Shown here one piece after another: positions 9,359 to 22,031 of a DNA stretch of 24,666 nt. Origin of the DNA: a virus; the IMG/VR virus record IMGVR_UViG_3300025141_016572; one strand, given 5' to 3'. Position numbers and translations under genes: made by a program. Below the pieces are notes generated by a model. That model was given only the letters and a program-made list of their open reading frames with translations. It was not told the origin of the DNA and did no database searches. How positions within the stretch are numbered: the first letter of the stretch is position 1; each line of letters opens with the position of its first letter.

Positions 9359-9367
9359 GTGATTCAA

Positions 9368-9856
9368 ATGAAAGCAGAAAAAGTGCTAGAGACATGGCTT
9401 AAGTTATCAGGCCTTTTGACAGAAGATATGTCATACGCAGAAGGTCAAGTTCTTGATAAGTTGAATTCCATGGCCGGGCCTCGGGGTCTTCCTGTCACTC
9501 ATGAAACACCGGCAGAAAACATTGATAGCATCAAAAGTATGGGAACTGTTGAAGGCACATACGGGGTCTTCTTTTCCATTGGTCATCTTAAAAATCCGGC
9601 ATTTGTCAGCGGCCCGGGATACATTATTCACGGATATCTGCCGAGGTTTATGCTTAACTCCAGGTATATTCACCCAGATATGATTTATGCTCCGGGTAGC
9701 AAAGACGAAGAAGACATGTTAGCTGGGGATGAGGAAGACTTTTGGGAAGTAATGTGGAATCAAACCCGAGGCAATTTGTTTGGGGCTCTTCTTAGCACCA
9801 ACTTAGACGATTGGCCTCAAAAATATTGGAAAGCAATTATTCCAAACGATCTTTAG
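9368..9856 (+). CDS. Hypothetical protein (162 aa).
   Basis: ATG 9368 with AGGTGA 5 nt upstream. Track lists GTG 9359. Confidence 0.55.
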   Translation: MKAEKVLETWLKLSGLLTEDMSYAEGQVLDKLNSMAGPRGLPVTHETPAENIDSIKSMGTVEGTYGVFFSIGHLKNPAFVSGPGYIIHGYLPRFMLNSRYIHPDMIYAPGSKDEEDMLAGDEEDFWEVMWNQTRGNLFGALLSTNLDDWPQKYWKAIIPNDL

Positions 9857-9865
9857 GAGAACACG

Positions 9866-10324
9866 ATGGCAACAACAATATCTAACGCAAACTTGGTTAT
9901 AACCGTAAACGAAGATGTCAAATTAAACGGTCACCAGGTTGGAAGCAAAATTGTGCAAACGATTGGTAGTATCAATGAGGCTTCGCGGCGAATAATGTCT
10001 GTGCCGACGTCAGAGACGACAGTTTTGACGCTGAGCAGTTCGATTGCTGCTGGCGGATACGTGACCAACAACATTCAGTACATTCGTGTTTCGAACTTGG
10101 ATGATACCAATTTTGTTCGATTGACATTCTTGTCGGGATCTGGCGGTTCATCAAATCGATACGATGTAAAGTTGCCAGCAAAGAGAACTGCTATTTTCAC
10201 AAGCCCAAGTGTATCTGGCTCTAACATAGGCTCAACATTTGATGCCTTTTCCAACTTTGACACCATGAAGGCCACCGCAGATACAGCAGTGGTTGATGTT
10301 GAACTTTTTGTTGCGAGTACCTAA
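9866..10324 (+). CDS. Hypothetical beta-rich Ser/Thr/Gly-rich protein (152 aa), possibly structural.
   Basis: AGGAGAacacgATG RBS. Composition only. Confidence 0.55.
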   Translation: MATTISNANLVITVNEDVKLNGHQVGSKIVQTIGSINEASRRIMSVPTSETTVLTLSSSIAAGGYVTNNIQYIRVSNLDDTNFVRLTFLSGSGGSSNRYDVKLPAKRTAIFTSPSVSGSNIGSTFDAFSNFDTMKATADTAVVDVELFVAST

Positions 10325-10605
10325 TGTCAAATTTGCTTCGTCGCATGATCGCTGAGGTGTTGCATGAAGGCGATATGGGTCACAACTCGTATACACTCGA
10401 TCCGACTCCCAATACGTGGGACAGCTTTCAAGATTTTGAAATTGAGTATTACCCACAAGACGACGGGACATATCTGATGGACATTTCTTTCAAGGGCAAG
10501 AAGCTCGCACCCATGAGTAAGTTTGGGACACAGGCTGATGCACAGCATCATGCAAGAATGATTGTTGACAAGCATCGAGTCAACGTGATGAATACCGAGC
10601 TCTAA
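10324..10605 (+). CDS. Hypothetical protein (93 aa). N-terminus is MSNLLRRMIAEVLHEG.
   Basis: Track ORF with start overlapping the upstream stop (TAATG). Confidence 0.5.
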   Translation: MSNLLRRMIAEVLHEGDMGHNSYTLDPTPNTWDSFQDFEIEYYPQDDGTYLMDISFKGKKLAPMSKFGTQADAQHHARMIVDKHRVNVMNTEL

Positions 10606-10619
10606 ATTCCTCCCAAATA

Positions 10620-10647
10620 TGTAAATCGAAGCATCCTCGGTTAGAAT
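10620..10647 (+). promoter_or_regulatory. Promoter copy 5 (degenerate): TGTAAA (10620-10625), 16 nt, TAGAAT (10642-10647). It is followed by leader hairpin GAGGTG-N9-CACCTC (10657-10677).
   Basis: Read directly. It sits in the only sizeable intergenic gap (87 bp) of the small-ORF block. Confidence 0.5.
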
Positions 10648-10692
10648 AACAACTGGAGGTGCAGTTCATTTCACCTCATGCAGTGGTAGAAA

Positions 10693-11121
10693 ATGAAAAT
10701 TTCTGACAAAATATCTACGCTATTCTCACCTCTTGATGTGGTCCTTATCGAAAAGGACTTCGAGCTGTTGATTGGGAAAAATGAAGAACCAGACATTTCT
10801 GATTCCATTCTCGATTATGCACAGGAGGTTTTGGGCGCCGGTGAACACCCTAGTAGAAATCCATCTTGCTGGCAGACATTTTTCGGTCAAGATATCGAGA
10901 TCGGTTCAAAGGAGTGGCGCGAAGGAATTGCAAATTTGCTTCGACTTACGTCGAAGCACACAGTATCAGAACTTGACAATGAGAGAAATCACTTGCTAGT
11001 AAGCGTAAAGCTAGAAGTCCTGGTTATAAATGCAAAGCAACTACCGGAATCGGTATTTCATGGAGCAAAATGCACATCAGTTCAAACGCCTTTCGGGGCC
11101 TTTCCAGTAACAGCAGAATGA
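10693..11121 (+). CDS. Hypothetical acidic protein (142 aa).
   Basis: Track ORF. Stop TGA overlaps the ClpP-like start (ATGA). Confidence 0.5.
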   Translation: MKISDKISTLFSPLDVVLIEKDFELLIGKNEEPDISDSILDYAQEVLGAGEHPSRNPSCWQTFFGQDIEIGSKEWREGIANLLRLTSKHTVSELDNERNHLLVSVKLEVLVINAKQLPESVFHGAKCTSVQTPFGAFPVTAE

Positions 11122-11744
11122 AAAGTCGATACCGGCTTGAGGATGTAGAACAAGCCGAACGTGTCGCTGCACATGAAATCATCATGAGTGAAGACAAAGG
11201 AAAACCGCTTGGTATTGAAGTAGAAGAGAATCATATCTATTTCTACTGTCCTGTCATGGAACGGGAATCATTGGAGCTCGTTCGAATTCTTCGCCGGCTT
11301 GATATTGAAATGAAATATCTTGGTGATCGGGTCGGCCTTCCGGAAAATCCCCCGATCCACTTGCACATTCAGAGTCCGGGCGGTGATATCTTCTCAGGAC
11401 TCAATATCTGTGATGTGATCACAAGTTGCAAGACGGATGTCTACACGTACATTGAGGGATCGGCTGCATCTGCATCTACAATGATTAGTTGCTGTGGCAC
11501 GAAACGATTCATCACTAAGAATTCGTTCATGCTTGTTCATCAACCACAAATGATGTTCTCTGGCAAACACGATGAGTTTATCGATGAGATTGAGAATCAA
11601 AAACACATCTATGCTGCTGTCAAACAAATCTACCTAGATCGGACTAAAATGTCTGATGATGTTTTGGCTGAAATGTTGACTCATGAATTGTGGCTGCCGG
11701 CAACTCGATGTAAAGAGTTGGGCTTGGTCGACTCCATTTGCTAG
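11118..11744 (+). CDS. clpP: ClpP-family (S14) serine protease homolog (~208 aa).
   Basis: IHLHIQSPGGDIFSGLNICDVI matches the ClpP [22 protein letters not shown] region. GSAASASTMI matches GQAASMGAFL (catalytic Ser). SFMLVHQP matches SRVMIHQP (catalytic His). The C-terminal LGLVDSI matches YGLVDSIL. The third triad residue (Asp) does not align obviously (THELWL vs TERDRF). Start at ATG 11118, translationally coupled, rather than track 11070. Confidence 0.8.
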   Translation: MKSRYRLEDVEQAERVAAHEIIMSEDKGKPLGIEVEENHIYFYCPVMERESLELVRILRRLDIEMKYLGDRVGLPENPPIHLHIQSPGGDIFSGLNICDVITSCKTDVYTYIEGSAASASTMISCCGTKRFITKNSFMLVHQPQMMFSGKHDEFIDEIENQKHIYAAVKQIYLDRTKMSDDVLAEMLTHELWLPATRCKELGLVDSIC

Positions 11745-11781
11745 AAGCAAGAATACAATATTCTCATAGTAGGAACATAAT

Positions 11782-13383
11782 ATGCCTAAGCATGACTGGA
11801 AACAGTTTTTTCCGTACAAGTCAATCCGTCCCGGTCAAGAACAAGCCATCAATGAAATTCTAGACGCATTTGAAAGTGACAAGAGGCTATTTGTCTTAGA
11901 GGCGGGCACTGGAATTGGGAAGTCAGCAGTTGCTGTAACTGTCGGTCGATACATGACACAACACTTTGAGACCGAAGAGGGGTTTCAAAAAGGGTGTAAC
12001 ATACTGACTACCCAAAAGTTACTACAAGAGCAGTACAATAGTGACTACCCTGCGATTAACTCTTTGAAGTCTTCATCGAACTACTCGTGTAATTTTCACA
12101 AGAAAGTGTCATGCAACGATTCCAGGAAGTTACTTCAAACAGAGCCGAAAGGGACTTCATTTTGGAGATGCTGTGCTATTAGTTGTGTCTACAAAAGGGC
12201 CAAAGAGAAGTTCATGGCGGACCCGTTTGGTGTCACGAATTTTGCATACTTTTTGACCGAGACTCGCTATTCTAAGAAGCTTCCAAAAAAGTCACTTCTC
12301 ATCATTGACGAGGCACACAACGTGCCAGACGAACTCAGCAGGTTCATTGAAGTGACATTTTCAGATAGGTTTGCCAAGTCATTCATCGGTATGAAACTCC
12401 CGGACAAAATCACTCCGGCGATGTTTGTCAAGTGGGTCTCCACAGATTACTATCCGGCGCTGGTACGAAAAGTCAAGGCATTCCGTTCAGGGCTAGAAAA
12501 GTTCACGACCATTAAGTCGCGGGTTGAGAGCGGAGAGTTTTCTAAGCTATCTCGTCAATTGGAGATCTTGACTGGTCATGAGCAGAAAGTCCTGTCATTC
12601 CTGGCTTTGTATGACAAGAACAACTGGCTCATGACAGAGGTTCCACCTGTTGATCGTTCTGGTCGAAGGGTAGAGTTTAAGCCAATTGATGTTGCGCCGT
12701 ATGCGCATGACTACCTGCTAAAAATGGGTAAGTATGTTTTGATGATGTCAGCGACAATTGTTGACACACATCGATTTGGTGAGCTATGCGGTATCACTGG
12801 AAAATTTGCATCTCTTGTGTTGCCCTGCCCGTTCCCCATCGAGAATCGGCCCATCGTGTATAGCGGGGTGGGCAAAATGTCAGCAAGGGAAATCGATTCG
12901 TCATTGCCCAAACTGGCGGCAGCTGTTAAGGAGATTCTGAAAAGTCACAAAGGTGAGAAGGGTATCATCCACACCCACACCTACAAAATTGCATGGTATC
13001 TCAAGCGAGTCTTAAGTGATCGACGCATAATCATTCACAACAGCGAAAACAGAATCGATATGCTACAAAAGCACATCAAGTCGAAGAAGGACACAGTTTT
13101 GATTTCCCCGTCGATGACTGAGGGTGTCGACTTAAAAGACGATCTCAGTCGATTCCAGATTGTCTGCAAGATTCCCTTCCCGTACTTGGGTGACCAGCTC
13201 ACTCGCAAAAAAATGAACAAGTGGAAGTGGTGGTATGACTTCCAAACGGCGAAGACTGTCATCCAATCGTCAGGTAGGTCTGTTCGAAGTGAAACCGACA
13301 CTGCCGTGACCTACATTCTTGACGCCTCTTGGGAACGATTTTTTGAAAACAACCGGTCGATGTTTGGCCCTGAGTTTCTATAG
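11782..13383 (+). CDS. Rad3/XPD/DinG-family superfamily-2 DNA helicase (533 aa).
   Basis: N-terminal FPYKSIRPGQEQAI with GTGIGKS Walker A (DinG/XPD motif I). DEAH box LIIDEAHNV. C-terminal motifs SPSMTEGVDL and QSSGRSVRSETD are typical of the Rad3-family helicase C domain. RBS is AGGAAcataatATG. Confidence 0.8.
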   Translation: MPKHDWKQFFPYKSIRPGQEQAINEILDAFESDKRLFVLEAGTGIGKSAVAVTVGRYMTQHFETEEGFQKGCNILTTQKLLQEQYNSDYPAINSLKSSSNYSCNFHKKVSCNDSRKLLQTEPKGTSFWRCCAISCVYKRAKEKFMADPFGVTNFAYFLTETRYSKKLPKKSLLIIDEAHNVPDELSRFIEVTFSDRFAKSFIGMKLPDKITPAMFVKWVSTDYYPALVRKVKAFRSGLEKFTTIKSRVESGEFSKLSRQLEILTGHEQKVLSFLALYDKNNWLMTEVPPVDRSGRRVEFKPIDVAPYAHDYLLKMGKYVLMMSATIVDTHRFGELCGITGKFASLVLPCPFPIENRPIVYSGVGKMSAREIDSSLPKLAAAVKEILKSHKGEKGIIHTHTYKIAWYLKRVLSDRRIIIHNSENRIDMLQKHIKSKKDTVLISPSMTEGVDLKDDLSRFQIVCKIPFPYLGDQLTRKKMNKWKWWYDFQTAKTVIQSSGRSVRSETDTAVTYILDASWERFFENNRSMFGPEFL

Positions 13384-13432
13384 CTGGCATTTTTTCTATA
13401 GTCGCACGTGATAGTTATTATCACGGAGGCGC
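13374..13432 (+). promoter_or_regulatory. Candidate regulated promoter/operator for the yeaH-spoVR-prkA operon. It has a direct repeat TTTCTATAG x2 (13374-13382, 13393-13401) and a TATAGT -10-like box. An inverted repeat GTGATA-N5-TATCAC (13407-13423) lies just upstream of RBS GGAGG.
   Basis: Read directly in the 49-bp gap between helicase stop and ATG 13433. Confidence 0.4.
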
Positions 13433-14629
13433 ATGTCAGTTTTTTCACACCACAAGACGTCAGCTGATCGATCGGCATCTGACCGGCGGCGGCATAGACA
13501 GAAAATCGACAAAGCAATTCGTGAAGGTATTCATGACATTGTTGCGGATGAAAGCATCATCGGGCAGGATGGAAAAAAGAAGTTCAGAATTCCTGTTCGC
13601 GGCATAAAAGAGTATCGCTTCGTCTATGGCAACAATGAAAACAACAAGAAAATCGGATCGGCTCCAGGAAAAGATATTCGGCGTGACCAGATTGTCAAAG
13701 AGAAGTCTAGAAAAGAGAAGCAAGGTGAAGGCCAGGCCGGAAACAAGGCAGGTGAAGAGTATTACGAAGTTGAGATCACTTTGGATGAGCTAGCTCAATA
13801 CTTGTTTGCAGACCTTGAACTTCCAGATTTAGAGAAAAAAGCGCTGGTAAAAGTCAAGTCGGAGAAGCTTAAAAGAACCGGTTATCGTCCACAGGGCATC
13901 TTACCTCGCTTGGACAAGAAGAAATCTGCGATCAACAGAATCAAGAGGTTGAAGGCACAGCAGCGAGACAATGGTGCCGCGGTTGCTCTCGTCGATGAGG
14001 ACCCTGATGAGGAACTGGCTGGGTCGTTTCACAATGATGACCTGACTTATCGGCACTATAAAAACAAGATGAAAGAGAGCACAAATGCTGTCATCATGAT
14101 GTTGATGGATGTGTCTGGGTCGATGTCCAAGAACAAGAAGTTTCTTGCACGGAGTTTCTTCTTCCTGCTCTACCAGTTTATTCGGACGAGGTATGACAAG
14201 GTTGAAATCGTTTTCATTGCGCATGATGCCAGTGCCAAGGAAGTTAGTGAAGAGCAGTTCTTCTCGAGAATCGCATCTGGCGGAACGGTTGTCTCATCTG
14301 CATACAATTTGGCCCTGGAAGTTGCAGAAAAACGCTTCCACCCATCACTGTGGAACATCTACGCTTTCCACTGCTCAGATGGAGACAACTTTGGTTTCGA
14401 CACCAACAATATGCTAATCGCTGCGACCAAGCTTAAAGAGCTCTGCCAGCTGTTTGGATATTGCGAGATCATCCCATCAGACGAACCTGTGTGGAACAAT
14501 GATGAAAGGCTGTCGGTTCATCTAGCTCAGCTTGCATCACGGAGTGTGAAGCTTGTTGAGATAAAAGAAAAGTCCGATGTTTGGAGTGCATTTAAAGTGA
14601 TGTTCGGTAGTTGCGGCGGCAAAAAATGA
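13433..14629 (+). CDS. yeaH: YeaH/YhbH-family protein (DUF444, vWA-like).
   Basis: VIMMLMDVSGSM matches E. coli YeaH FCLMDVSGSM. GGTVVSSA matches GGTIVSSA. WNIYAFHCSDGDNF matches WNIYAAQASDGDNW. The overall length (398 aa) and Lys/Arg-rich N-terminus fit the family. GGAGG RBS 5 nt upstream. Confidence 0.85.
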   Translation: MSVFSHHKTSADRSASDRRRHRQKIDKAIREGIHDIVADESIIGQDGKKKFRIPVRGIKEYRFVYGNNENNKKIGSAPGKDIRRDQIVKEKSRKEKQGEGQAGNKAGEEYYEVEITLDELAQYLFADLELPDLEKKALVKVKSEKLKRTGYRPQGILPRLDKKKSAINRIKRLKAQQRDNGAAVALVDEDPDEELAGSFHNDDLTYRHYKNKMKESTNAVIMMLMDVSGSMSKNKKFLARSFFFLLYQFIRTRYDKVEIVFIAHDASAKEVSEEQFFSRIASGGTVVSSAYNLALEVAEKRFHPSLWNIYAFHCSDGDNFGFDTNNMLIAATKLKELCQLFGYCEIIPSDEPVWNNDERLSVHLAQLASRSVKLVEIKEKSDVWSAFKVMFGSCGGKK

Positions 14630-15927
14630 GCGGAACAATCAAAGAGCTCGAGCACTGGGACAAGAAGGTCAATGAAATAGCAACAGGCTACAAATTAGAT
14701 TGGCACCCAATCAGGTACGAAGTGTGTGACTACTACGCCATGATTGGACACATGGCTTATCACGGGCTTCCAACACACTATGATCACTGGTCATATGGTA
14801 AGTCATTTGAGAGGACACATCAAGCTTACAATGCAGGTGTGGAAGGCTTGCCATACGAACTCATCATCAATTCAGATCCGTCTATCGCATACTTAATGCG
14901 CGAGAACCCGCTGTATCTCCAGATCCTGATTATGGCTCACTGTGTCGGTCACAGCGATTTCTTCAAAAACAACCGAATGTTCAAGAGCACCCGGCCAGAA
15001 TCTGTCATTGGCAGGATGAGGGCAGCTAAAAAGCGAATCAAAGAATATGTGGAGGACCCAAGAATTGGAATTGACAGCGTTGAAGAGACTATCGATGCAT
15101 GTCATGCCTTGCAATTTCAAATCAACCGCGATGGGTCAGAACGCAGAACGCACAAGGAAATGGTTGAATACTACCGAGCTTTGTCAGAAAGAGACAATGA
15201 CGGTCGATATGTTGTCTATGACATCGATACTGTTCCTCTTGAACCGGAAGCTGATATCATGGGATTTGTTTCAGAGCATGGCAAAATGCCGGACTGGAAG
15301 CGTGACATTATTGAGATTTGCCGCGATGAGGCATATTACTTCATGCCGCAAATTCAAACCAAGATCATGAATGAGGGTTGGGCGAGTTTTTGGCACTACA
15401 CAATTTGTCACGATCTTGAGCTGCCAGACAAATACCACTTGCCGTTCCTCAAAATGCACAACTCTGTGATTCGTCCACACATTGGTGGGCTTAATCCTTA
15501 TCACCTAGGCTTTGTCATATTTCAAGACATCAAGAAGCGTCTTGGACTTGAAGAGTGCTTTATTGCGAGGGAATCCCTAAATGACGTGTCATTCATTCGC
15601 CAGTATCTTACTGAAGAGCTTGCTATGGAGTTGGGTCTGTTTAGCTGGAGTGAGAAAAAGAATGCCTGGACGATTGACGAAATCTCCGATGATGATGGGT
15701 GGAAACTCGTTAGAGACACACTGTGCAAATCAGTTGGTGACGCCGGAATACCGGTGATCAAGATTGAAGAGCTTTCGGAAAATGGTCACCTAACTCTTCA
15801 TCACGACCACGATGGTCGAGATATGATTCTCGACTATTCCGACAAAACAGTTGAACATGTTCGCATACTATGGCCTGGGGAGGTCCTTCTTCACACTATT
15901 GTTGAAGGTGATCCGTGGGAAATTTGA
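14626..15927 (+). CDS. spoVR: SpoVR/YcgB-family protein.
   Basis: YHGLPTHYDHWSYGKSFE...PYELIINSDPSIAYLMRENPLYLQILIMAHCVGHSDFFKNNRMF aligns with B. subtilis SpoVR (YGMPTRFSHWSFGKQF...[41 protein letters not shown]). MNEGWASFWH is a family signature. ATG 14626 overlaps the yeaH stop (ATGA). Track lists TTG 14611. Confidence 0.9.
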   Translation: MSGTIKELEHWDKKVNEIATGYKLDWHPIRYEVCDYYAMIGHMAYHGLPTHYDHWSYGKSFERTHQAYNAGVEGLPYELIINSDPSIAYLMRENPLYLQILIMAHCVGHSDFFKNNRMFKSTRPESVIGRMRAAKKRIKEYVEDPRIGIDSVEETIDACHALQFQINRDGSERRTHKEMVEYYRALSERDNDGRYVVYDIDTVPLEPEADIMGFVSEHGKMPDWKRDIIEICRDEAYYFMPQIQTKIMNEGWASFWHYTICHDLELPDKYHLPFLKMHNSVIRPHIGGLNPYHLGFVIFQDIKKRLGLEECFIARESLNDVSFIRQYLTEELAMELGLFSWSEKKNAWTIDEISDDDGWKLVRDTLCKSVGDAGIPVIKIEELSENGHLTLHHDHDGRDMILDYSDKTVEHVRILWPGEVLLHTIVEGDPWEI

Positions 15928-15975
15928 GTTTATGTTTTGTGCCACCGATTTACAGTGGCAACGAAAGGAGAATGC

Positions 15976-17907
15976 ATGAGTGTTAACAGCCTGCTGAAAG
16001 TCATTCAGAAACAGCGAAAAGTAAATGATGGTCGGGAGAGATTTTCTGGGACATTTACAGATTACTTACGATTGCTTGAGAAAAATCCTGATTTGGTGAA
16101 GTCATCTCACAAGAGGCTATACGAGGCATTGATTGAAGATGGCGTTGAAAAAATGCCGGATAGTAATCCGAGAAAGAGCAGGATTTTTGACAACAACACC
16201 ACTAACATTTATAAGTACTTTGAAAAGCACTTCTTCGGAATGGAGAGGGTCCTTGAGAACCTCATGTCATTTTTGCATTCCGCTGCTCATAAAGGTGAGG
16301 AGTCACGCCAAGTCCTTCTATTGATGGGTCCGGTTGGCGCAGGAAAATCTGCGCTTATCGAGCATGTTAAGCATGCGCTGGACGGAAAAGAGTACTATCA
16401 CTTGAAAGGAGACCCCCATCGAGGTGAGCCGCTTCAACTTGTTCCTCGCGGACTCCGTGAGACATTTGAAGAGACACTTGGCATTCGAATTGAGGGTGAT
16501 ATTAGTCCTGTTGCTCGTCACATTCTTCTAAAAGAGCTTGACGGCAAGTATGAGGATTTTGAGATTAAGCAGACAACGTTTTCACAGCGTGGGCGGCGAG
16601 GTATCGCATCAGTGCCTCCCATGGATGCCAATAGTCAAGACGTCGGTGTCCTAATCGGGTCGGTCGATATTTCCAAGCTAGACAAACATCCAGAGGACGA
16701 CCCTCGGGTCCTGTCACTCAATGGCGCTTTCAATGTCGGAAATCGTGGAATCGTGGAGCTTGTTGAGGTTTTCAAAAATGAGATCGAATTCCTTCATACC
16801 ATCATCACAGCCACACAGGAGAAGCGAATTCCATCTCCAGGCAAGAGTGACATGCTTCACTTTGATGGCGTCATCGTGGCACACTGCAATGAAGCAGAAT
16901 GGAATCGGTTCCAGTCCGAGCATACAAATGAGGCAATTCTTGATCGAGTGGTGAAAATTGATGTGCCGTACTGCCTCGAGCTAGATCAGGAAATGAAAAT
17001 CTACAAGAAAATGTTGGGTCTGTCAGACTTCAATGCGCATATCGCCCCACATACACTTCGAGTTGCATCAATGTTCAGCATCATGTCTCGGCTTAGATCA
17101 ACAGCAAAATGTGACTTGGTTACAAAAATGAAGATCTACAATGGCGAGGAGGTCGTCGAAAAGGGGCGAGTCAAGAAGATTGACCTACGTGATCTTAAAG
17201 ACGAGGCCCGGCGCGAAGGAATGTCTGGTATTTCTACTCGATTCATCGCCAAAGCTATCGACATGGCGCTTGTTCGAAGTGAAAACAATATGATCACGCC
17301 GGTGTCTCTGATTGACTCGCTGGTAACATGTATCAAGGAACAAATTTCAGATGAGGAGTTCAAAAACAAGTGCCTCGAGCTCGTCCAGAAAGTGGTTCGT
17401 GAAGAGTACCTGAAAATTCTTGATACAGAGATTGCGAAAGCATTCATCTCAGCGTATGAAGAGCAAGCTCAGGCATTGTTTGATGGTTACTTGGATAATG
17501 CTGAGGCATATACAACCCATCAGCGAATGAAAGATCGTGTCACCAAAGAAGAGCGAAAGCCCGATGAGAAATTCATGACTTCAATCGAGGAACAAATTGG
17601 TGTAACCGGCAGCTCGAAAGATGGCTTTAGAAGCGATGTGACAGCATACATGTTTGCCAAGATGCGACGTGGAGAAATTGTTGACTTCAAAACATACGAG
17701 CCGCTAAAGGAGGCGATTGAGTCATACCTCATCAACTCGGTTCGAGATATCTCTCGAATCGTGACGAAGTCAAAAACACGCGACAAAGATCAACAGAAAA
17801 AATACAGCGAAATGGTCTGTGTAATGATCGATCAGTATGGCTATAATGAAGATAGTGCTGATGAGATCCTCTCATACGCATCTAATAACCTCTGGAGAGA
17901 TAGCTAA
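15976..17907 (+). CDS. prkA: PrkA/YeaG-family putative serine protein kinase (AAA-type P-loop N-domain).
   Basis: RIFDNNTTNIYKYFEKHFFGMERVLENLMSFLHSAAHKGEESRQVLLLMGPVGAGKSALIEHVKHAL aligns with E. coli YeaG RIFSNKKIKVYPAFREFYGMEEVIEQLVAYFRHAAQGLEEKKQILYLLGPVGGGKSSLAERLKQLM. Further matches are KGDPHRGEPL/KGSPVNESPL, THTIITATQE/LHPLLTATQE and FDGVIVAHCNEAEW/FDGIILAHSNESEW. ATG 15976 with AAGGAG RBS. Confidence 0.9.
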   Translation: MSVNSLLKVIQKQRKVNDGRERFSGTFTDYLRLLEKNPDLVKSSHKRLYEALIEDGVEKMPDSNPRKSRIFDNNTTNIYKYFEKHFFGMERVLENLMSFLHSAAHKGEESRQVLLLMGPVGAGKSALIEHVKHALDGKEYYHLKGDPHRGEPLQLVPRGLRETFEETLGIRIEGDISPVARHILLKELDGKYEDFEIKQTTFSQRGRRGIASVPPMDANSQDVGVLIGSVDISKLDKHPEDDPRVLSLNGAFNVGNRGIVELVEVFKNEIEFLHTIITATQEKRIPSPGKSDMLHFDGVIVAHCNEAEWNRFQSEHTNEAILDRVVKIDVPYCLELDQEMKIYKKMLGLSDFNAHIAPHTLRVASMFSIMSRLRSTAKCDLVTKMKIYNGEEVVEKGRVKKIDLRDLKDEARREGMSGISTRFIAKAIDMALVRSENNMITPVSLIDSLVTCIKEQISDEEFKNKCLELVQKVVREEYLKILDTEIAKAFISAYEEQAQALFDGYLDNAEAYTTHQRMKDRVTKEERKPDEKFMTSIEEQIGVTGSSKDGFRSDVTAYMFAKMRRGEIVDFKTYEPLKEAIESYLINSVRDISRIVTKSKTRDKDQQKKYSEMVCVMIDQYGYNEDSADEILSYASNNLWRDS

Positions 17908-18164
17908 TGAAAGGTTGGGCGTCTGAAATTTTGATTGCATGTGGTGTATACTTCGTTTCGCAGAATCATGTATTGGGATACATTCTGTTGTCAATGGGGA
18001 TCCTTGCTGCCATTGTACGATTTGGGGCCTCTCTCATTCGAACAAAAATCAAAGATGACATCTTGTTGTCAATGCATAGTGTTCTCAAGGGTGCAGCTAT
18101 AGCAGTAGGTGAGCTAGATAGTGAGAAACTTCGTACAGCAGTCAAAGAGACAACGATTCACTAA
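17907..18164 (+). CDS. Small membrane protein (85 aa, two hydrophobic helices).
   Basis: ATGA-coupled to the prkA stop. Helices include ILIACGVYFV and ILLSMGILAAIV. Confidence 0.5.
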   Translation: MKGWASEILIACGVYFVSQNHVLGYILLSMGILAAIVRFGASLIRTKIKDDILLSMHSVLKGAAIAVGELDSEKLRTAVKETTIH

Positions 18165-19287
18165 GTCATTTCTTAAAAGAAGTGAGATCCAGTCTGTTGT
18201 CAAGTCAGCCAAAGATGAGCTCCGTGACATCTGCAGTAATTTGCTGTCTGGAAAAATAACATTCAGTTACGGCAGCAAAATCTGCCAGGGTGTACCTCTA
18301 GACTTCCACCGATGTTTGACAGAGTGGTCTCAGAGCTCCTCAATTGATCTGGCCATAAGGAATATCATACTTAGTGCTTTCTATTCAACAGAGGTCAACC
18401 AGGGTGGTTCAGGGCTTATTGCGTGCCTCTTGTGGACGAAACTTATCGATCCGAACAATATTCCGTTGAGTCGTAAAGACTACATCACTGCACAAAATGT
18501 AGATCAGATTCTCGAGACCTGGTCACAAGGCGGATTGTCTTGTTCAGTCGTAAAAAAATTGATGCGTCTTGGGTCTTGTGGGTACCCGGTCGACCTTAAA
18601 GAGGCATCAGGGTTTGGAACAAAAGTCACCTGCATTCGTGGACAAGAAATTGTAGGATCAGTTGATCCGCTTTTTGATAGCAAAGTCAACTTCGAACGAA
18701 TGGACGATGATTTCTACATCCTAGCAGTTGACGGGATTGTTGAGAGTTTGGGCCAGATTCATAGATTCTTGACCCAGGCGGGCCAGCAAAAACTTATGAT
18801 TCTTGCTCGGGGATTCTTGCCAGATGTCTCTAATACAATGGCTACTAACTGGGCATCTGCGAAGTTATTTGCTGTTCCATTTGTAGTAACAGATTGGGGT
18901 GTCGATAACTTTCTTAACTTGTCGCAAGAGGGCTTCGAGTGCATTTCTATTGAAGCCGGTCAATCAATGACATCGGCGAAAATTAAGCAGCAAGTCGCTG
19001 TCAGCATTTTCAAGAAGAGCATTGTGTATCAGTCTTGCTCAAATGTATCCAAGACAAATCTTAGCGTTTCTTTTGGGACAGATCTGGGTACACTCAAAGG
19101 AATTTCAATTGATCGCACAAAAACTTTACTCGCACTGTCTAGATTTGCTGCCAGGTCCGGCTACGCCACACTTTTTGAAGGTGATCATCCGCTGGTTGTC
19201 CCTCAATCTTCGCTGGAGACAGCATCGCGCGCGGAAAAAAGCCTCACCACGATTTTACAAAATTTGGGCGGCGTCATCACATCATAG
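18121..19287 (+). CDS. Hypothetical protein (388 aa). The GTG start overlaps the upstream gene by 44 nt and the true start may lie downstream.
   Basis: Long ORF without internal stops. There is weak, unverified resemblance to the chaperonin intermediate/apical region (FYILAVDGIVESLGQIHRFLTQAGQQKLMILA vs GroEL [33 protein letters not shown]). Confidence 0.5.
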   Translation: MRNFVQQSKRQRFTKSFLKRSEIQSVVKSAKDELRDICSNLLSGKITFSYGSKICQGVPLDFHRCLTEWSQSSSIDLAIRNIILSAFYSTEVNQGGSGLIACLLWTKLIDPNNIPLSRKDYITAQNVDQILETWSQGGLSCSVVKKLMRLGSCGYPVDLKEASGFGTKVTCIRGQEIVGSVDPLFDSKVNFERMDDDFYILAVDGIVESLGQIHRFLTQAGQQKLMILARGFLPDVSNTMATNWASAKLFAVPFVVTDWGVDNFLNLSQEGFECISIEAGQSMTSAKIKQQVAVSIFKKSIVYQSCSNVSKTNLSVSFGTDLGTLKGISIDRTKTLLALSRFAARSGYATLFEGDHPLVVPQSSLETASRAEKSLTTILQNLGGVITS

Positions 19288-19303
19288 TAGAAAAGGAGAC
19301 AAA

Positions 19304-19513
19304 ATGTCAAAACCATCAGAAGGAAAAGTCTGTAGAGCAGTTATTGATCGCCACGACGTAATGAAGAATCAGGTGATAGCTTCTGTTCGTGAAGCCCTCG
19401 GTGCAGATGAATCTAACAAAGCTTTGAGTGGAATCAGCGAGTCTGTTGTTAAAATTTTTCAAGTACACACAAACGGATTGATTAATAACATTTCTAAAGA
19501 ATTTGCTAAGTAA
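19304..19513 (+). CDS. Hypothetical small protein (69 aa).
   Basis: AAAGGAGAcaaaATG RBS. The track's longer ORF from 19022 lies inside the previous gene. Confidence 0.55.
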   Translation: MSKPSEGKVCRAVIDRHDVMKNQVIASVREALGADESNKALSGISESVVKIFQVHTNGLINNISKEFAK

Positions 19514-19518
19514 GTCGG

Positions 19519-19980
19519 ATGCAAGGTTACAAGCACTTACTAGAGTGTCATTGCGTTTTGCCGCAATTTCGGCACAGGAACACCACAGTCTATCATAAGT
19601 TTGTAGTGTTTTCTATCGTGGATGACTCTGATACCGTCGTGTCTAGCCTGGCCCAATGTAACAATTGCGGCACAGTTCATCGAGTTTTTGATATTTGCAA
19701 GTCTGAGATTCTCTCAGGAAAAGATGAGTCCCGAGCTATCGAAAAGAAAGAAGATATCAGCCTGTCCCTTCCGTCATCATTGGTTGAGCTTTTTGACAGC
19801 TATCGACTTGAGTTACCTGACTACCAATACGCAAGATTCATTTTTGAAAATGACTTGTGGAATACAACACTAGTGTTATCAGCCAACAGTGAATCAGGGA
19901 GTCGTGAAGGGAAGATTCTACGATTTGTGTCAGCAGAAAAGTTTAGGGTTGAACCATTTTTGCACAATGAGGTTATCTGA
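19519..19980 (+). CDS. Hypothetical protein (153 aa) with Cys/His cluster (CHC...CNNC...H), possibly zinc-binding.
   Basis: Track ORF. Stop overlaps the next start (TGATGG). Confidence 0.5.
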   Translation: MQGYKHLLECHCVLPQFRHRNTTVYHKFVVFSIVDDSDTVVSSLAQCNNCGTVHRVFDICKSEILSGKDESRAIEKKEDISLSLPSSLVELFDSYRLELPDYQYARFIFENDLWNTTLVLSANSESGSREGKILRFVSAEKFRVEPFLHNEVI

Positions 19981-20237
19981 TGGCTACAAAACTTTCTGCC
20001 CTAGAGTATTCCAGAGCTACACAGAAGGTGAAAGCTCGTGAAATTGCGAGCGAAATCATCAAGTTTGGTGTTACACAAGTTCAACTCCTTTACATTATCA
20101 AGCTACTATCGCTAGAATTAGAGGATATGAAACTAGTACGTGAACTAGGTGATGTGATTAAGAAAGGCGAGTGGTTCGCTATGTCGGGCAGCGAAAAAAT
20201 TGACGATAGTCCGAAAAAGACAAAGATTTACATGTAG
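19980..20237 (+). CDS. Hypothetical protein (85 aa).
   Basis: Track ORF. Confidence 0.45.
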   Translation: MATKLSALEYSRATQKVKAREIASEIIKFGVTQVQLLYIIKLLSLELEDMKLVRELGDVIKKGEWFAMSGSEKIDDSPKKTKIYM

Positions 20238-20247
20238 GAGAAGTGAT

Positions 20248-20458: not shown

Positions 20459-20508
20459 CGAACAACAATATGCGAGAACCGGTCTTAGGGCCGGTTCTCG
20501 CGTTGTTC
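20459..20508. terminator. Bidirectional hairpin between convergent genes. Its core stem is CGAGAACCGG / CCGGTTCTCG (20473-20482 / 20491-20500), extended imperfectly to ~18 bp (GAACAAC...GTTGTTC). The stop codon of the minus-strand gene (20485-20487) lies in the loop.
   Basis: Read directly. It is flanked by the stop of gene 20248..20454 (+) and the 3' end of gene 20485..20676 (-). Confidence 0.65.
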
Positions 20509-20723: not shown

Positions 20724-22031
20724 ATGACAAAGCTAAATAAGAAGATCATAATCCTCGATACCAGTGTTCTTCTCTATGACAAGAAGTCGCTAGAGAACTT
20801 TCCCGGGTGTGACGTCATTCTACCTCTGGTCGTCTTGGACGAGCTGGATAGATTCAAAGATAAGTCAGGCCTCCTTGGAGAGAATGCACGATATATCAAT
20901 CGTCTTCTGGACGAGTTCCGAAAGCTAGGTCCTCTGCATTCAGGTGTAGATGTAGGAAACGAACAGACGGTAACCATACGTCTAGTTACTCCAGATGTGC
21001 CCAGAGACTTTCCTCTTGATCCTACCTATGGTGACAACAGGATACTGTTGGAAGCCCTCCAGATCAAAGCAGGGAACCCAGATCGCAATATCACAATTGT
21101 CTCAAAAGACATAAATCTTCGTGTCAAAAGTGACGCGTTAGAACTTCGGTCTGAGGATTACTACAGTGACTATATCGATCTACCTGAGGATCATTGGACC
21201 GGTGTTGAAACCATAACACCGAAAGGAAATGAAATTGATAATCTGTATCAATCCAAGTCGATCCCATATGAAAGTGATATGAGTCACAACTCGTTCATTG
21301 TTTTGAGGGAAAAGCAATCAAAGAAGTCAGCTTTATGTGTCTGGAATGCCATTGAAGACAAGCTTCATTTAGTGCCCGATCTCGATGTCAAGACCGGTGA
21401 TACATCGAGTTTTTCTGCCAAGAATAAGGAGCAGAAATTTGCGATGTGGGCACTTTTGAACAATCAGATTCCACTGGTCACAATGACCGGTCTTGCCGGC
21501 TCCGGAAAAACATTTATGGCATTGCTGTCAGGAATCAATCAGGTTCAGTCTGGAAGGTATGAAAGGATCGTAATCACAAGAAACATCCAGCCTGTCGGAA
21601 AAGAACTGGGTTTTCTTCCTGGAGACGCAAACGAAAAGATGCTTCCATGGATGTCACCGGCAATTGACAATCTCAGAAATCACTTTAAGGATCGTCGAAC
21701 GTTTGATTTGATGCATGTGAACGGACTGATTGAAATTGCTCCGATGTCATTCATTCGTGGCAGAACTTTCGCGAATGCGTTTATTGTCCTGGATGAAGCT
21801 CAAAATGCTTCGATTCATGAACTCAAAACTGTGATCACTCGTGTTGGTGAAGGCAGCAAGATTATTCTAATGGGTGACACAGATCAGATTGACACACCCT
21901 ACATCAATAAGAACACGAATGGGTTGAGCATCGTGGCAAAACGGATGAGGGAGTCTCTCCACACTGCACACATCCATCTGCCAGTTGGAATAAGATCAAC
22001 TATCGCCTCAGAGGCAAGTTACTTGCTCTAA
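20724..22031 (+). CDS. phoH: PhoH2-type protein with an N-terminal PIN domain fused to a PhoH-like P-loop ATPase (YlaK-like).
   Basis: PIN region: IIILDTSVLL ... PLVVLDELD ... acidic residues. PhoH motifs: Walker A GLAGSGKTFMAL, Walker B FIVLDEAQN, signature GDTDQID. The 435-aa length fits PIN-PhoH fusions. Strong RBS TAAGGAGG. Confidence 0.85.
   Translation: MTKLNKKIIILDTSVLLYDKKSLENFPGCDVILPLVVLDELDRFKDKSGLLGENARYINRLLDEFRKLGPLHSGVDVGNEQTVTIRLVTPDVPRDFPLDPTYGDNRILLEALQIKAGNPDRNITIVSKDINLRVKSDALELRSEDYYSDYIDLPEDHWTGVETITPKGNEIDNLYQSKSIPYESDMSHNSFIVLREKQSKKSALCVWNAIEDKLHLVPDLDVKTGDTSSFSAKNKEQKFAMWALLNNQIPLVTMTGLAGSGKTFMALLSGINQVQSGRYERIVITRNIQPVGKELGFLPGDANEKMLPWMSPAIDNLRNHFKDRRTFDLMHVNGLIEIAPMSFIRGRTFANAFIVLDEAQNASIHELKTVITRVGEGSKIILMGDTDQIDTPYINKNTNGLSIVAKRMRESLHTAHIHLPVGIRSTIASEASYLL

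What the first reader, a model, noticed from the sequence alone, without database searches (positions are those of the whole stretch)
13374..17907. Complete YeaH(YhbH)-SpoVR(YcgB)-PrkA(YeaG) stress-signalling triad encoded as one coupled operon in a phage-like context
Three consecutive co-directional genes match the conserved bacterial prkA/yeaH/spoVR partnership, which is sigmaS- and starvation-associated in enterobacteria and sporulation-associated in Bacillus. Here they form one operon in the order yeaH-spoVR-prkA. The yeaH stop and spoVR start overlap (ATGA). A candidate operator palindrome GTGATA-N5-TATCAC and TTTCTATAG direct repeats lie upstream. The surroundings look viral (dense small ORFs, ClpP-like protease, fibre gene). 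A virus carrying this whole module would be a large auxiliary signalling system, possibly used to reprogram host starvation or dormancy responses during infection. I am not aware of this triad being described as a phage cargo.
Basis: partly seen in the sequence, partly recalled or inferred. Interest (0 to 1): 0.85.

Follow-up and report, generated by a model that had tools for sequence, protein, structure and literature searches.

The report
Phage-borne PrkA–YeaH–SpoVR gene cassette
A clade of uncultivated aquatic jumbo phages carries an intact, rearranged copy of the bacterial PrkA/YeaH/SpoVR starvation-and-sporulation module; the three genes are real, but the same trio already sits in deposited phage genomes, so this is a new member of a known, little-studied kind.

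Summary
Three adjacent same-strand genes encode DUF444/YeaH (13433-14629), SpoVR (14626-15927, ATGA overlap) and PrkA (15976-17907), with Pfam E-values of 1e-107 to 1e-133. The context is viral: at least 147 IMG/VR contigs, up to 361 kb, carry close relatives.

The novelty claim does not hold. The full trio is in Thermus phages (phiYS40, deposited as DQ997624; TMA, phiLo, MN1, Lalka), Ralstonia phage RsoM2USA and four ~600-kb uncultured phages. PHROGs v4 has a family for each protein. No paper in the searchable library treats the trio as a phage module.

What I add:
- All 79 uncut loci of this clade have the order yeaH-spoVR-prkA; all 70 sampled cellular loci have prkA-yeaH-spoVR.
- The clade is monophyletic for all three proteins. 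The best cellular identity to the window's PrkA is 52-58%. This argues against recent host capture.
- More distant relatives keep the backbone but lack the trio.
- The Walker A, MIDAS and SpoVR HxxxH/NEGWAS motifs are intact.
- One relative has an intein inside NEGWA|S.

The upstream palindrome is not conserved. The likely function is an ATP-driven protein-remodelling or proteolytic machine; this is inferred.

The parts
11070..11744 (+). ClpP-like serine protease gene (context). JGI calls the start at 11118, giving 208 aa.
   Evidence: Pfam CLP_protease E 7e-28. phrog_94 E 2e-41. Gene call.
11782..13383 (+). DinG/XPD-like helicase gene. It is the upstream backbone neighbour of the cassette.
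   Evidence: Pfam Helicase_C_2 and ResIII. phrog_2488 E 9e-107. PADLOC typeIV_DinG E 2e-65. Syntenic in 34 loci.
13375..13401 (+). Two exact TTTCTATAG copies, 18 bases apart (13375-13383 and 13393-13401). The first is the end of the helicase ORF including its stop. The second could act as a weak -35 (TTTCTA-N17-TATTAT).
   Evidence: only two exact copies in the window. Sequence. The promoter reading is inference only.
13408..13424 (+). Palindrome GTGATAGTTATTATCAC. It overlaps a -10-like TAGTTATTATCA (13412-13423) and forms the inner hairpin of a predicted leader structure (13384-13439) that pairs the yeaH AUG.
   Evidence: unique in the window; not conserved in L004, L007 or L062.: -10-like motif score 9.3, nine bases before the ATG; about one third of the clade has a similar motif. 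RNA fold -16.6 kcal/mol, z -3.3; clade-wide mean z only -0.42.
13425..13429 (+). GGAGG ribosome-binding site of yeaH.
   Evidence: Sequence.
13433..14629 (+). yeaH/yhbH homologue (398 aa): DUF444 with an intact vWA-type MIDAS motif (D226-x-S228-x-S230, T285, D316/G317).
   Evidence: Pfam DUF444 358.6 bits. TIGR02877 spore_yhbH 397 bits, below its 468-bit equivalog cut-off. phrog_19072 E 1.6e-85. Motif residues at least 97% conserved across 153 sequences.
14626..15927 (+). spoVR/ycgB homologue (433 aa). Its start overlaps the yeaH stop (ATGA). Invariant H105-x3-H109, E250 and H257 (N-E-G-W-A-S-x-W-H), H278 and N290-P-Y. Cys106 is specific to the clade.
15966..15970 (+). AGGAG ribosome-binding site of prkA.
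   Evidence: Sequence.
15976..17907 (+). prkA/yeaG homologue (643 aa): PrkA-type AAA+ domain with Walker A G118-P-V-G-A-G-K124-S125, plus the PrkA C-terminal domain. No Lon S16 or other protease domain was detected.
   Evidence: Pfam AAA_PrkA 444.3 bits and PrkA 256.9 bits. phrog_22605 E 5.8e-128. PDB 9xip 'Serine protein kinase' E 3e-91. 84 residues at least 97% conserved across 158 sequences.
17907..18164 (+). 85-aa ORF whose ATG overlaps the prkA stop by one base. Poorly conserved.
   Evidence: gene calls. Matched in only 3 loci. No Pfam or NCBIfam hit.
18121..19287 (+). 388-aa ORF of unknown function. It is the downstream backbone neighbour. A weakly similar ORF of about 395 aa sits next to the helicase in relatives that lack the trio.
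   Evidence: 28 loci, about 26% identity; collinear weak similarity, E 9e-4 and 0.045. No Pfam or PHROG hit.
20470..20503 (.). 15-bp GC-rich hairpin between convergent genes. It is the first strong terminator-like site downstream of the cassette.
20724..22031 (+). PIN-PhoH (PhoH2-type) gene, a syntenic backbone neighbour.
   Evidence: Pfam PhoH E 5e-52 and PIN_4 E 6e-26. phrog_2765. Syntenic in 46 loci.

Best explanation
SHOWN. The window is a complete 24.7-kb contig of an uncultivated aquatic jumbo phage. The clade it belongs to carries, as a fixed three-gene cassette, an intact PrkA-type AAA+ ATPase, a YeaH/YhbH protein with a vWA-type MIDAS motif, and a SpoVR protein. The cassette belongs to the YhbH/Bacillota-type branch of the family, not the enterobacterial YeaG/YeaH type. 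It has the permuted order yeaH-spoVR-prkA. It is monophyletic for all three proteins. It is more conserved than the flanking helicase and PhoH genes. It sits between a DinG-like helicase and a 388-aa ORF, on a backbone that more distant relatives keep without the trio. This points to one old acquisition of all three genes followed by vertical inheritance under purifying selection, not a recent host-derived moron. yeaH and spoVR are translationally coupled throughout the clade.

INFERRED (mechanism). [quoted passage not shown] I therefore infer that the three phage proteins act as one machine:
- PrkA is an ATP-driven ring. B. anthracis PrkA was classified in classic clade III, with a pore loop, like FtsH/YME1.
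- YeaH recruits a target or partner through its MIDAS site.
- SpoVR, whose model resembles zincin metallohydrolases and which has an invariant HxxxH plus NEGWAS..H site, supplies a metal-dependent catalytic or regulatory step.

Made by the phage during infection, this machine would remodel or degrade selected host or phage proteins. That would keep a nutrient-limited host productive through a long jumbo-phage infection. The neighbouring ClpP-like protease, and GroEL in a sister subgroup, fit a proteostasis theme. The targets are unknown.
For: Family identity.

Viral context and abundance:
- 147 IMG/VR contigs; the 80 kept are 63-84% identical in PrkA; contigs reach 361 kb.
- more than 7000 metagenomic homologues, from JGI, ENA, Logan and Tara.
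- the same genes appear in three independent assemblies.
- GroEL (phrog_5725, E 1.5e-147) and a tail-fibre/baseplate-like ORF in sister loci.

Gene order: yeaH-spoVR-prkA in 79 of 79 uncut clade loci, against prkA-yeaH-spoVR in 70 of 70 cellular loci.

Trees and identities:
- The clade is monophyletic for PrkA (70/70), YeaH (70/70) and SpoVR (69/69), with no cellular sequence inside.
- The minimum identity within the clade is 0.60, 0.47 and 0.47 respectively.
- The best sampled cellular PrkA is 52-58% identical to the window's.

Cassette presence and absence: the 15 relatives whose helicase is at least 49% identical carry the trio. Eight relatives at 42-48% keep helicase, a ~395-aa ORF, g19519 and PhoH without it.

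Conservation ranking (median identity to the window): PrkA 69%, SpoVR 58%, YeaH 55%, helicase 50%, PhoH 48%.

Coupling: the yeaH/spoVR junction is -8 to +1 in most loci.

Motifs: Walker A, MIDAS and SpoVR H105/H109/E250/H257 are at least 97% conserved across 143-158 viral and cellular sequences.

SpoVR:
- AF2 model pLDDT 78.
- HxxxH lies in helix 96-115, directly after a three-stranded sheet.
- An intein with a LAGLIDADG endonuclease sits exactly at NEGWA|S in L006.

Literature:
- Conserved cofitness of yeaG, yeaH and ycgB in six bacteria (bioRxiv 10.1101/072470).
- B. subtilis PrkA is an ATPase with slow ATP-dependent casein hydrolysis and no kinase activity (PMC9512850).
- B. anthracis PrkA is a clade III AAA+ protein that oligomerises with ATP and lacks protease active-site residues (PMC13001217).
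Against: There is no experimental or expression evidence for any phage copy. The targets, the timing and complex formation are all inferred.

- Foldseek against the PDB found nothing (best E 0.2, TM about 0.1).
- A SpoVR profile found no PDB sequence.
- The canonical catalytic Glu of HExxH is absent in every group. The residue is Cys, Val or Ala.

PrkA's own activity is disputed: kinase, protease or neither.

Limits of the phylogeny:
- The trees are neighbour-joining.
- The cellular sample is the best 80 of only the first 600 pattern matches. A closer cellular relative or a nested placement could have been missed.
- A subgroup (L010-L029) carries the cassette in a different neighbourhood. Some phage-to-phage transfer or rearrangement has therefore occurred.

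In the Lalka Thermus phages the trio lies between the head genes and TerL. That hints at a morphogenetic role rather than host reprogramming.

No capsid, portal or terminase gene was seen on the window or in the fetched flanks.
Confidence: 0.6

Rival explanations
1. Signalling kinase. Phage PrkA is a Ser/Thr kinase, and YeaH and SpoVR are its partners. It phosphorylates host regulators to switch starvation, stationary-phase or dormancy programmes during infection.
For: The family is annotated as a serine protein kinase. Price et al. cite in vitro autophosphorylation and casein phosphorylation for E. coli YeaG. YeaG is linked to survival of nitrogen starvation (PMC4664914, listed). The PrkA C-terminal domain is intact and conserved.
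Against: B. subtilis and B. anthracis PrkA showed no kinase activity, and the C-terminal P-loop is degenerate. The window's PrkA is closest to this Bacillota-type branch. No kinase Pfam model other than the PrkA domains matched.
Confidence: 0.15
2. Virion-assembly chaperone. The AAA+ and vWA pair works like MoxR-vWA maturation systems and helps to assemble or mature the large capsid or another phage complex. Host physiology is not its target.
For: In Lalka8 the trio lies directly between the portal and minor head protein genes and TerL. In phiYS40 it is about 4 kb from the large terminase gene. In the marine clade it neighbours a ClpP-like protease that also matches prohead-protease PHROGs, or GroEL. 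PrkA gives a weak hit to a MoxR domain model (bpMoxR, E 0.0015).
Against: In the window the neighbours are helicase, PhoH and small ORFs, not head or tail genes. The cellular homologues act in organisms that have no capsids. Relatives that lack the trio keep the same backbone, so it is not required for the basic virion.
Confidence: 0.15
3. Recently captured host genes (a moron or auxiliary gene set), or not phage DNA at all: a chromosomal island misread as viral.
For: The module is widespread in bacteria. The NCBI record behind one homologue names a Porticoccaceae MAG (P0012; P0133). A 1.4-kb contig in a Proteobacteria MAG is 77% identical (L084). The Enterobacter phage LAU1 record starts with yeaG-yeaH.
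Against: The best cellular PrkA identity is 52-58%, against 63-91% among viral-type contigs. The gene order differs in every case, 79 loci against 70. The clade is monophyletic for all three proteins. GC content is uniform at 43-47% across 5.5-22.5 kb, so the cassette is not a compositional island. The window has no tRNA, rRNA or housekeeping gene. The MAG contigs are short and have the phage-type sequence. LAU1's genes are the enterobacterial type at the end of a record, most simply host DNA at a prophage edge.
Confidence: 0.04
4. Counter-defence or inter-phage conflict module. The machine removes or disables a host immunity protein.
For: AAA+/vWA ternary systems occur in conflict systems. 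This rests on my own knowledge of the Aravind-lab classification and on the weak bpMoxR hit. The window also carries conflict-associated domains: cREC_REC and an MVP/Band-7 protein.
Against: No protein of the trio matches any PADLOC defence model meaningfully. The cellular module is a conserved housekeeping-like stress system, not a variable island gene.
Confidence: 0.06

Closest known systems
Bacterial prkA-yhbH-spoVR operon of the Bacillota type (B. subtilis PrkA/YhbH/SpoVR; clostridial operons)
   Same: The same three Pfam families with full-length matches. This is the closest sequence branch: PrkA 52-58%, YeaH 35-50% and SpoVR 38-48% identical. The best NCBIfam model for YeaH is spore_yhbH. 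Walker A, MIDAS and the SpoVR His/Glu motifs are conserved.
   Different: The gene order is permuted: yeaH-spoVR-prkA instead of prkA-yeaH-spoVR. All three proteins score below the NCBIfam equivalog cut-offs. The SpoVR residue after the first His is Cys rather than Val. The genes sit on a phage genome with no sporulation context.
E. coli yeaG-yeaH and ycgB (sigmaS- and NtrC-linked, starvation-associated)
   Same: The same families. The functional linkage of the three genes is established by conserved cofitness.
   Different: Only about 30-37% identical (LAU1 yeaGH and the RsoM2USA type). In E. coli the genes are split into two operons. The regulation is not transferable.
Thermus phage trios: phiYS40 genes 056-059, TMA, YS40_Isch, phiLo 32-30, MN1 220-200, Lalka8 12-14
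   Same: Phage-borne complete trios in the same permuted order, yeaH-spoVR-prkA. This shows that the kind is already deposited.
   Different: Only 21-32% identical to the window's proteins by tblastn. The DUF444 proteins are shorter. phiYS40 has an extra 616-aa gene between spoVR and prkA. The hosts are thermophiles. In Lalka the trio sits inside the head and packaging region.
Ralstonia phage RsoM2USA ORF30-29-28 and the huge uncultured phages LR756502, LR745206, LR756504 and LR756511
   Same: Jumbo or huge phages with the trio. RsoM2USA and LR756502 also carry a related DinG-like helicase.
   Different: They have the cellular gene order prkA-yeaH-spoVR and the proteobacterial type of sequence (about 30% identity). 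These are independent acquisitions. No spoVR was found in the fetched flank of LR756502.
FtsH/YME1 (AAA+ ring fused to an M41 zincin protease) and MoxR-vWA chaperone pairs. This is a 'works like' comparison, not a membership claim.
   Same: A classic-clade AAA+ ATPase with a pore loop (PMC13001217), a zincin-like metal-site protein and a vWA-MIDAS partner.

Membership tests
PrkA/YeaG family | N-terminal PrkA-type AAA+ domain (PF08298) above the gathering score | tested here: met
   444.3 bits against a cut-off of 25; profile positions 2-357 of 358
PrkA/YeaG family | PrkA C-terminal domain (PF06798) | tested here: met
   256.9 bits against a cut-off of 25; profile positions 1-255 of 255
PrkA/YeaG family | Intact Walker A lysine (K108 in B. 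subtilis; needed for ATP binding and for sporulation) | tested here: met
   G118-P-V-G-A-G-K124-S125. G118, P119, G121, K124 and S125 are invariant across 158 sequences. The equivalence to K108 is by motif, not by a direct alignment to the B. subtilis sequence.
PrkA/YeaG family | NCBIfam equivalog score (NF011999, cut-off 576 bits) | tested here: not met
   384.4 bits. A family member, but not an equivalog of the enterobacterial protein.
PrkA/YeaG family | ATPase, protease or kinase activity | not testable with these tools
   The biochemistry is disputed in the literature.
YeaH/YhbH (DUF444) | PF04285 above the gathering score | tested here: met
   358.6 bits against a cut-off of 27
YeaH/YhbH (DUF444) | vWA-type MIDAS motif DxSxS...T...D | tested here: met
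   D226, S228, S230 and T285 are invariant, and D316/G317 at least 97% conserved, across 153 sequences. That DUF444 belongs to the vWA fold class is from my own knowledge and from the Lalka8 annotation 'vWA domain-containing protein'.
YeaH/YhbH (DUF444) | TIGR02877 spore_yhbH equivalog cut-off (467.95 bits) | tested here: not met
   397.2 bits. It is the best model but falls below the cut-off.
SpoVR/YcgB | PF04293 above the gathering score | tested here: met
   409.3 bits against a cut-off of 27
SpoVR/YcgB | SpoVR_C domain (PF24755, cut-off 27.6 bits) | tested here: inconclusive
   24.6 bits in the window. Most close relatives have it on record.
Cellular prkA-yeaH-spoVR operon | Three genes adjacent on one strand | tested here: met
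Cellular prkA-yeaH-spoVR operon | Canonical order prkA, then yeaH, then spoVR | tested here: not met
   The window and 79 of 79 clade loci have yeaH-spoVR-prkA. All 70 cellular loci have the canonical order.
Cellular prkA-yeaH-spoVR operon | Starvation or sporulation regulation (sigmaS, NtrC, sigmaE) | not testable with these tools
   Only a weak sigma70-like -10 element upstream. No expression data.
Phage auxiliary (host-derived) gene set | Encoded on a viral genome | tested here: met
   Synteny with IMG/VR contigs up to 361 kb. Phage-family neighbours. Tail-fibre-like ORF and GroEL in sister loci. No capsid or terminase gene was seen in the stretches fetched.
Phage auxiliary (host-derived) gene set | Recent acquisition from the current host (high identity, host gene order) | tested here: not met
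   At most 58% identity to the sampled cellular PrkA. The order is permuted. The clade is monophyletic.
Zincin (HExxH) metallopeptidases, considered for SpoVR | HExxH motif with a catalytic Glu | tested here: not met
   The motif is H105-C-V-G-H109. Position 106 is Cys, Val or Ala and never Glu in 143 sequences.
Zincin (HExxH) metallopeptidases, considered for SpoVR | Zincin fold: a sheet followed by an active-site helix and a ligand helix | tested here: inconclusive
Known anti-phage defence systems (PADLOC) | Match to a defence-system protein model | tested here: not met
   No hit for YeaH or SpoVR. PrkA gives only P-loop-level hits (DolB, E 3e-6 over 79 residues).

The most novel reading that the evidence does not exclude
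SpoVR is a cryptic zincin-like metallohydrolase. PrkA-YeaH-SpoVR would then be a three-part machine: an AAA+ unfoldase, a vWA adaptor and a metallopeptidase, in effect a split relative of FtsH/YME1. That would reconcile the conflicting reports that PrkA alone is, or is not, a protease. A large clade of aquatic jumbo phages would have domesticated this machine once, long ago, with a clade-specific Cys next to the metal site, to edit the proteome of starved hosts. The intein that sits exactly in the invariant NEGWA|S motif marks SpoVR's active site.
Probability: 0.3. Interest if true: 0.7.

Novelty: new member of a known kind. Interest (0 to 1): 0.45.

Why it matters
The PrkA/YeaH/SpoVR trio is one of the most widely conserved bacterial modules without a known mechanism. 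It is linked to starvation survival and sporulation.

A whole clade of abundant uncultivated aquatic jumbo phages has kept an intact copy. Across a within-clade divergence of about 40% in PrkA, the cassette is more conserved than the neighbouring replication-type genes. This shows the module is useful outside any sporulation or sigmaS context, and it gives a compact, self-contained version to study.

Two by-products bear on the mechanism in all organisms and can be tested directly with point mutants:
- the zincin-like SpoVR model with a family-wide HxxxH/NEGWAS..H site;
- an intein that marks that site.

For phage biology the trio adds to the list of proteostasis-type functions that jumbo phages carry, alongside ClpP and GroEL. 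Culturable carriers already exist for genetics: Thermus phages and RsoM2USA.

Tried and rejected
- Megablast of the region against 50,697 phage records found no match. There is no close cultured relative. The helicase and PhoH are at most 34% identical to any deposited phage.
- Operator palindrome: present but unique to the window and absent from the nearest relatives. Rejected as a conserved operator.
- Leader RNA structure that hides the yeaH start codon: significant in the window (z -3.3 with dinucleotide shuffles; -2.1 with mononucleotide shuffles) and in L007 (-2.8). It is not a clade-wide feature: mean z -0.42, with 13% of sequences below -2.
- A -10-like TAnTTATAAT motif upstream of yeaH: the search was seeded, and only about one third of sequences exceed the 95th percentile of shuffles. 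Suggestive only.
- AF2 model of PrkA: pLDDT 52 and pTM 0.36 from a shallow alignment. Not used for fold search.
- Foldseek of the SpoVR model against the PDB found nothing significant. A SpoVR profile against PDB sequences found nothing.
- PADLOC: no meaningful defence-system match. Rfam: no family. ARAGORN: no tRNA.
- Sigma70 promoter scan: not enriched over shuffles, 18 sites against 14.6 ± 4.5 expected.
- Literature: ten full-text searches found no paper that treats the trio as a phage module and no paper on the 9xip PrkA structure. The library lacks most subscription journals, including the original phiYS40 papers.
- First tree attempt timed out. It was redone with faster alignment and neighbour-joining.

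Full report
**1. What is in the sequence**

The window has three consecutive plus-strand ORFs at 13433-14629, 14611-15927 and 15937-17907. Pfam assigns them as follows:
- DUF444, E 6.5e-107.
- SpoVR, E 2e-122.
- AAA_PrkA, E 4e-133, plus the PrkA C-terminal domain, E 3e-76.

Each match covers nearly the whole profile and lies far above the curated cut-off.

The true spoVR start is the ATG at 14626, which overlaps the yeaH TGA as ATGA. The likely prkA start is the ATG at 15976, preceded by AGGAG. Independent metagenome gene calls give the same three products of 398, 433 and 643 aa.

The palindrome GTGATAGTTATTATCAC (13408-13424) and the two TTTCTATAG copies (13375-13383, 13393-13401) are present as described.

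**2. The unit of transcription**

The trio is not a stand-alone operon. It lies in a co-directional gene string running from about 5.9 to 22.7 kb.
- The upstream DinG-like helicase ends 49 bases before yeaH.
- The prkA stop overlaps the ATG of an 85-aa ORF, which overlaps a 388-aa ORF.
- The first strong terminator-like hairpin is at 20470-20503.

The first TTTCTATAG copy is simply the end of the helicase reading frame.

The palindrome is not conserved in the nearest relatives (L004, L007, L062). It overlaps a -10-like element, TAGTTATTATCA, nine bases before the ATG. A similar TAnTTATAAT motif occurs close to the yeaH start in roughly a third of the clade (the search was seeded, so this is only suggestive).

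As RNA, the window's leader can fold so that the AUG is paired (-16.6 kcal/mol, z -3.3). L007 does something similar. The clade as a whole does not (mean z -0.42). I therefore reject a conserved operator and leave a local promoter or leader hairpin as a possibility for this genome only.

**3. Where the window comes from**

The window is a whole 24,666-base contig. Its SpoVR protein is found, identical, on contigs from JGI sample 3300025112, ENA ERZ27249011 and Logan SRR6222012.

A scan of IMG/VR with PrkA found 147 viral contigs that encode relatives. The 80 kept are 63-84% identical and include contigs of 361, 293, 284, 257 and 254 kb. The protein database holds more than 7000 homologues. The top 120 are all at least 73% identical and come from JGI, ENA, Logan and Tara assemblies.

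Neighbouring genes match phage families:
- helicase, phrog_2488, E 9e-107;
- PIN-PhoH, phrog_2765;
- a ClpP-like protease.

Sister loci carry a phage-type GroEL (phrog_5725, E 1.5e-147, in 18 loci) and a tail-fibre/baseplate-like ORF.

The window has no tRNA, no Rfam family and no housekeeping gene. GC content is flat at 43-47% across 5.5-22.5 kb, so the trio is not a compositional island.

No cultured phage is close. Megablast finds nothing. The helicase is at most 34% identical to those of jumbo phages such as Tunturi_5, RsoM2USA and Bacillus phage G.

The context is therefore an uncultivated jumbo-phage lineage, aquatic and at least partly marine. I did not see a capsid or terminase gene in the stretches fetched.

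**4. Is the trio new as phage cargo? No.**

A tblastn search with PrkA against 50,697 phage records finds 17 records. Pfam confirms complete trios in the following:
- Thermus phage YS40_Isch, whose annotation notes refer to phiYS40's 'conserved bacterial protein', SpoVR and serine kinase genes;
- the Lalka phages;
- Ralstonia phage RsoM2USA.

The annotated records and tblastn matches show the same arrangement in phiLo and MN1. Three of four ~600-kb uncultured phages also have all three genes.

The Enterobacter phage LAU1 record merely begins with enterobacterial yeaG-yeaH. This is most simply host DNA at a prophage edge.

PHROGs v4 already has a family for each protein. The RsoM2USA paper lists SpoVR and PrkA separately in its tables (PMC8504454).

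No paper in the searchable library discusses the three genes as one phage module. The library lacks most subscription journals.

**5. What the comparison adds**

(a) Gene order. All 79 uncut loci of the clade have yeaH-spoVR-prkA. All 70 cellular loci that hold the three genes have prkA-yeaH-spoVR. The Thermus phages share the permuted order. RsoM2USA and the huge phages have the cellular order.

(b) Distance. The closest cellular proteins in a scan of 185,579 species genomes are 52-58% (PrkA), 35-50% (YeaH) and 38-48% (SpoVR) identical to the window's. They come mostly from Clostridia and other Bacillota, with some Geminicoccaceae and Syntrophobacteria MAGs. The best NCBIfam model for YeaH is the sporulation-type YhbH, below its equivalog cut-off. 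The proteobacterial YeaG type is only about 30-37% identical.

(c) Trees. Neighbour-joining trees give the clade as monophyletic for PrkA (70/70), YeaH (70/70) and SpoVR (69/69), with no cellular sequence inside. Within-clade divergence goes down to 60%, 47% and 47% identity.

(d) Presence and absence. A helicase-seeded scan shows that the 15 relatives whose helicase is at least 49% identical all carry the trio. Eight more distant relatives (42-48%) keep helicase, a small ORF, a ~395-aa ORF, g19519 and PhoH without it. The ~395-aa ORF is weakly but collinearly similar to the window's 388-aa ORF.

(e) Conservation ranking. The trio is more conserved than its neighbours. Median identity to the window is PrkA 69%, SpoVR 58% and YeaH 55%, against helicase 50% and PhoH 48%.

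(f) Coupling. The yeaH/spoVR junction is -8 to +1 in most loci.

Together these results point to one old insertion of all three genes into a jumbo-phage backbone, then vertical inheritance under purifying selection. A subgroup (L010-L029) has the cassette in a different neighbourhood, next to GroEL, so some movement or rearrangement has also occurred. Recent host capture is rejected.

**6. Are the proteins functional?**

- PrkA keeps Walker A (GPVGAGKS). 84 residues are at least 97% identical across 158 viral and cellular sequences.
- YeaH keeps a MIDAS-type D-x-S-x-S...T...D.
- SpoVR keeps H54/W55, E78, H105-x3-H109, E153, N-E250-G-W-A-S-x-W-H257, H278 and N-P-Y.

PrkA has a solved homologue: PDB 9xip, 9xiq and 9xir, 'Serine protein kinase', E 3e-91. 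I found no paper on it. SpoVR and YeaH have no solved homologue by sequence.

**7. A lead on SpoVR**

An AlphaFold2 model of the window's SpoVR, built from 34 sequences, has pLDDT 78 and pTM 0.77.

The invariant HxxxH lies in the long helix 96-115, immediately after a three-stranded sheet. This is the arrangement of the zincin active-site helix.

Evidence against:
- Foldseek found nothing.
- A sequence profile found nothing.
- The residue after the first His is never Glu. It is Cys in all 69 clade members, Val in all 67 sampled bacteria and Ala in RsoM2USA and the huge phages.

SpoVR is therefore not a canonical HExxH zincin.

Independent support that the His/Glu cluster is the functional centre comes from relative L006. 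Its SpoVR is interrupted by an intein with a LAGLIDADG endonuclease. The intein is inserted exactly between A253 and S254 of the invariant NEGWA|S motif: NEGWA|CVTGDTLI...FINHN|SYNHY. Inteins characteristically sit in active-site motifs; this last point is my own knowledge.

**8. How it most likely works**

The following is established elsewhere:
- B. subtilis PrkA is an ATPase with slow ATP-dependent casein hydrolysis and no kinase activity (PMC9512850).
- B. anthracis PrkA is a clade III AAA+ protein with a pore loop. It oligomerises with ATP and lacks protease active-site residues (PMC13001217).

The window's PrkA has no protease domain by Pfam.

My best reading is that the three phage proteins form one ATP-driven machine:
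- PrkA is the motor.
- YeaH is a MIDAS adaptor.
- SpoVR contributes a metal-dependent step.

The machine would remodel or degrade selected proteins during infection. The ClpP-like and GroEL neighbours fit a proteostasis theme. The target is unknown, and so is whether it belongs to the host or the phage.

The rivals are a true signalling kinase, a virion-assembly chaperone (favoured by the Lalka location between the head genes and TerL), and counter-defence (there is no PADLOC support).

**9. Verdict**

It is not unprecedented, not a recent capture, and has no conserved operator.
- It is a new member of a known kind.
- Interest is moderate.

Noticed in passing
L006:3255-5816 (IMGVR_UViG_3300006802_020762): The SpoVR gene of this relative encodes 853 aa. 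An intein with a LAGLIDADG homing endonuclease is inserted exactly between A253 and S254 (window numbering) of the family-wide invariant NEGWA|S..H motif.
   Followed up: yes
window 2937-5609 (- strand): An 890-aa protein with major-vault-protein shoulder, Vault_3 and Band-7/SPFH domains, with no PHROG match. Relatives at 61-78% identity occur on five IMG/VR contigs. One is at the end of a 318-kb contig whose length matches the longest contig recorded for SpoVR homologue P0127. A vault-like shell protein in a phage is unusual.
   Followed up: partly
window 1-5600 and 23000-24666 versus 5600-22800: GC content is 52-58% at both ends of the contig and 43-47% in the middle. The gene orientation also changes at these points. 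The cause is unknown. The 3' end has a homologue in the related phage locus L062, so a chimeric assembly is unlikely.
   Followed up: partly
window 5933-6904 (+): A 323-aa protein with a cREC_REC domain (cyclic-phosphate-processing receiver, E 1.3e-27), matching phrog_1479 of unknown function.
   Followed up: no
window 20248-20454 (+) and 20485-20730 (-): A 68-aa Hc1-type histone H1-like protein (Pfam E 3.9e-7) converges on a small protein that consists only of sigma-70 region 4. They share the strong hairpin at 20470-20503. This could be a phage nucleoid protein and a sigma-mimic or appropriator.
   Followed up: partly
L010-L029, e.g. L027:2851-4485: A subgroup of the clade has a full-length GroEL chaperonin (544 aa, phrog_5725, Pfam Cpn60_TCP1) about 3 kb upstream of the trio, in place of the helicase and ClpP neighbourhood.
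   Followed up: partly
window 18121-19287 (+); L193:12134-13330; L201:12078-13262: A 388-aa ORF with no family match follows the trio. A weakly similar ORF of about 395 aa sits directly after the helicase in relatives that lack the trio. This marks the insertion point of the cassette.
   Followed up: partly
window 2014-2817 (+): A 267-aa KaiC/RecA-like P-loop ATPase (Pfam KaiC E 1.2e-11; phrog_26214) in the high-GC left arm.
   Followed up: no
L175 (MN688132.1, Enterobacter phage LAU1) 1-3308: The deposited 30.8-kb phage record begins with enterobacterial yeaG and yeaH, next to tail genes. This is probably host chromosome included at a prophage boundary rather than phage cargo.
   Followed up: no
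L002:4027-5877 (Thermus phage YS40_Isch): In the phiYS40 group a 616-aa protein with no Pfam match is inserted between spoVR and prkA. It may be a fourth component in that lineage.
   Followed up: no
P0012, P0133; L084: Short contigs that carry the phage-type PrkA and SpoVR are binned in Porticoccaceae and 'Proteobacteria' MAGs. This is a weak lead to a marine gammaproteobacterial host, or simply mis-binning.
   Followed up: no
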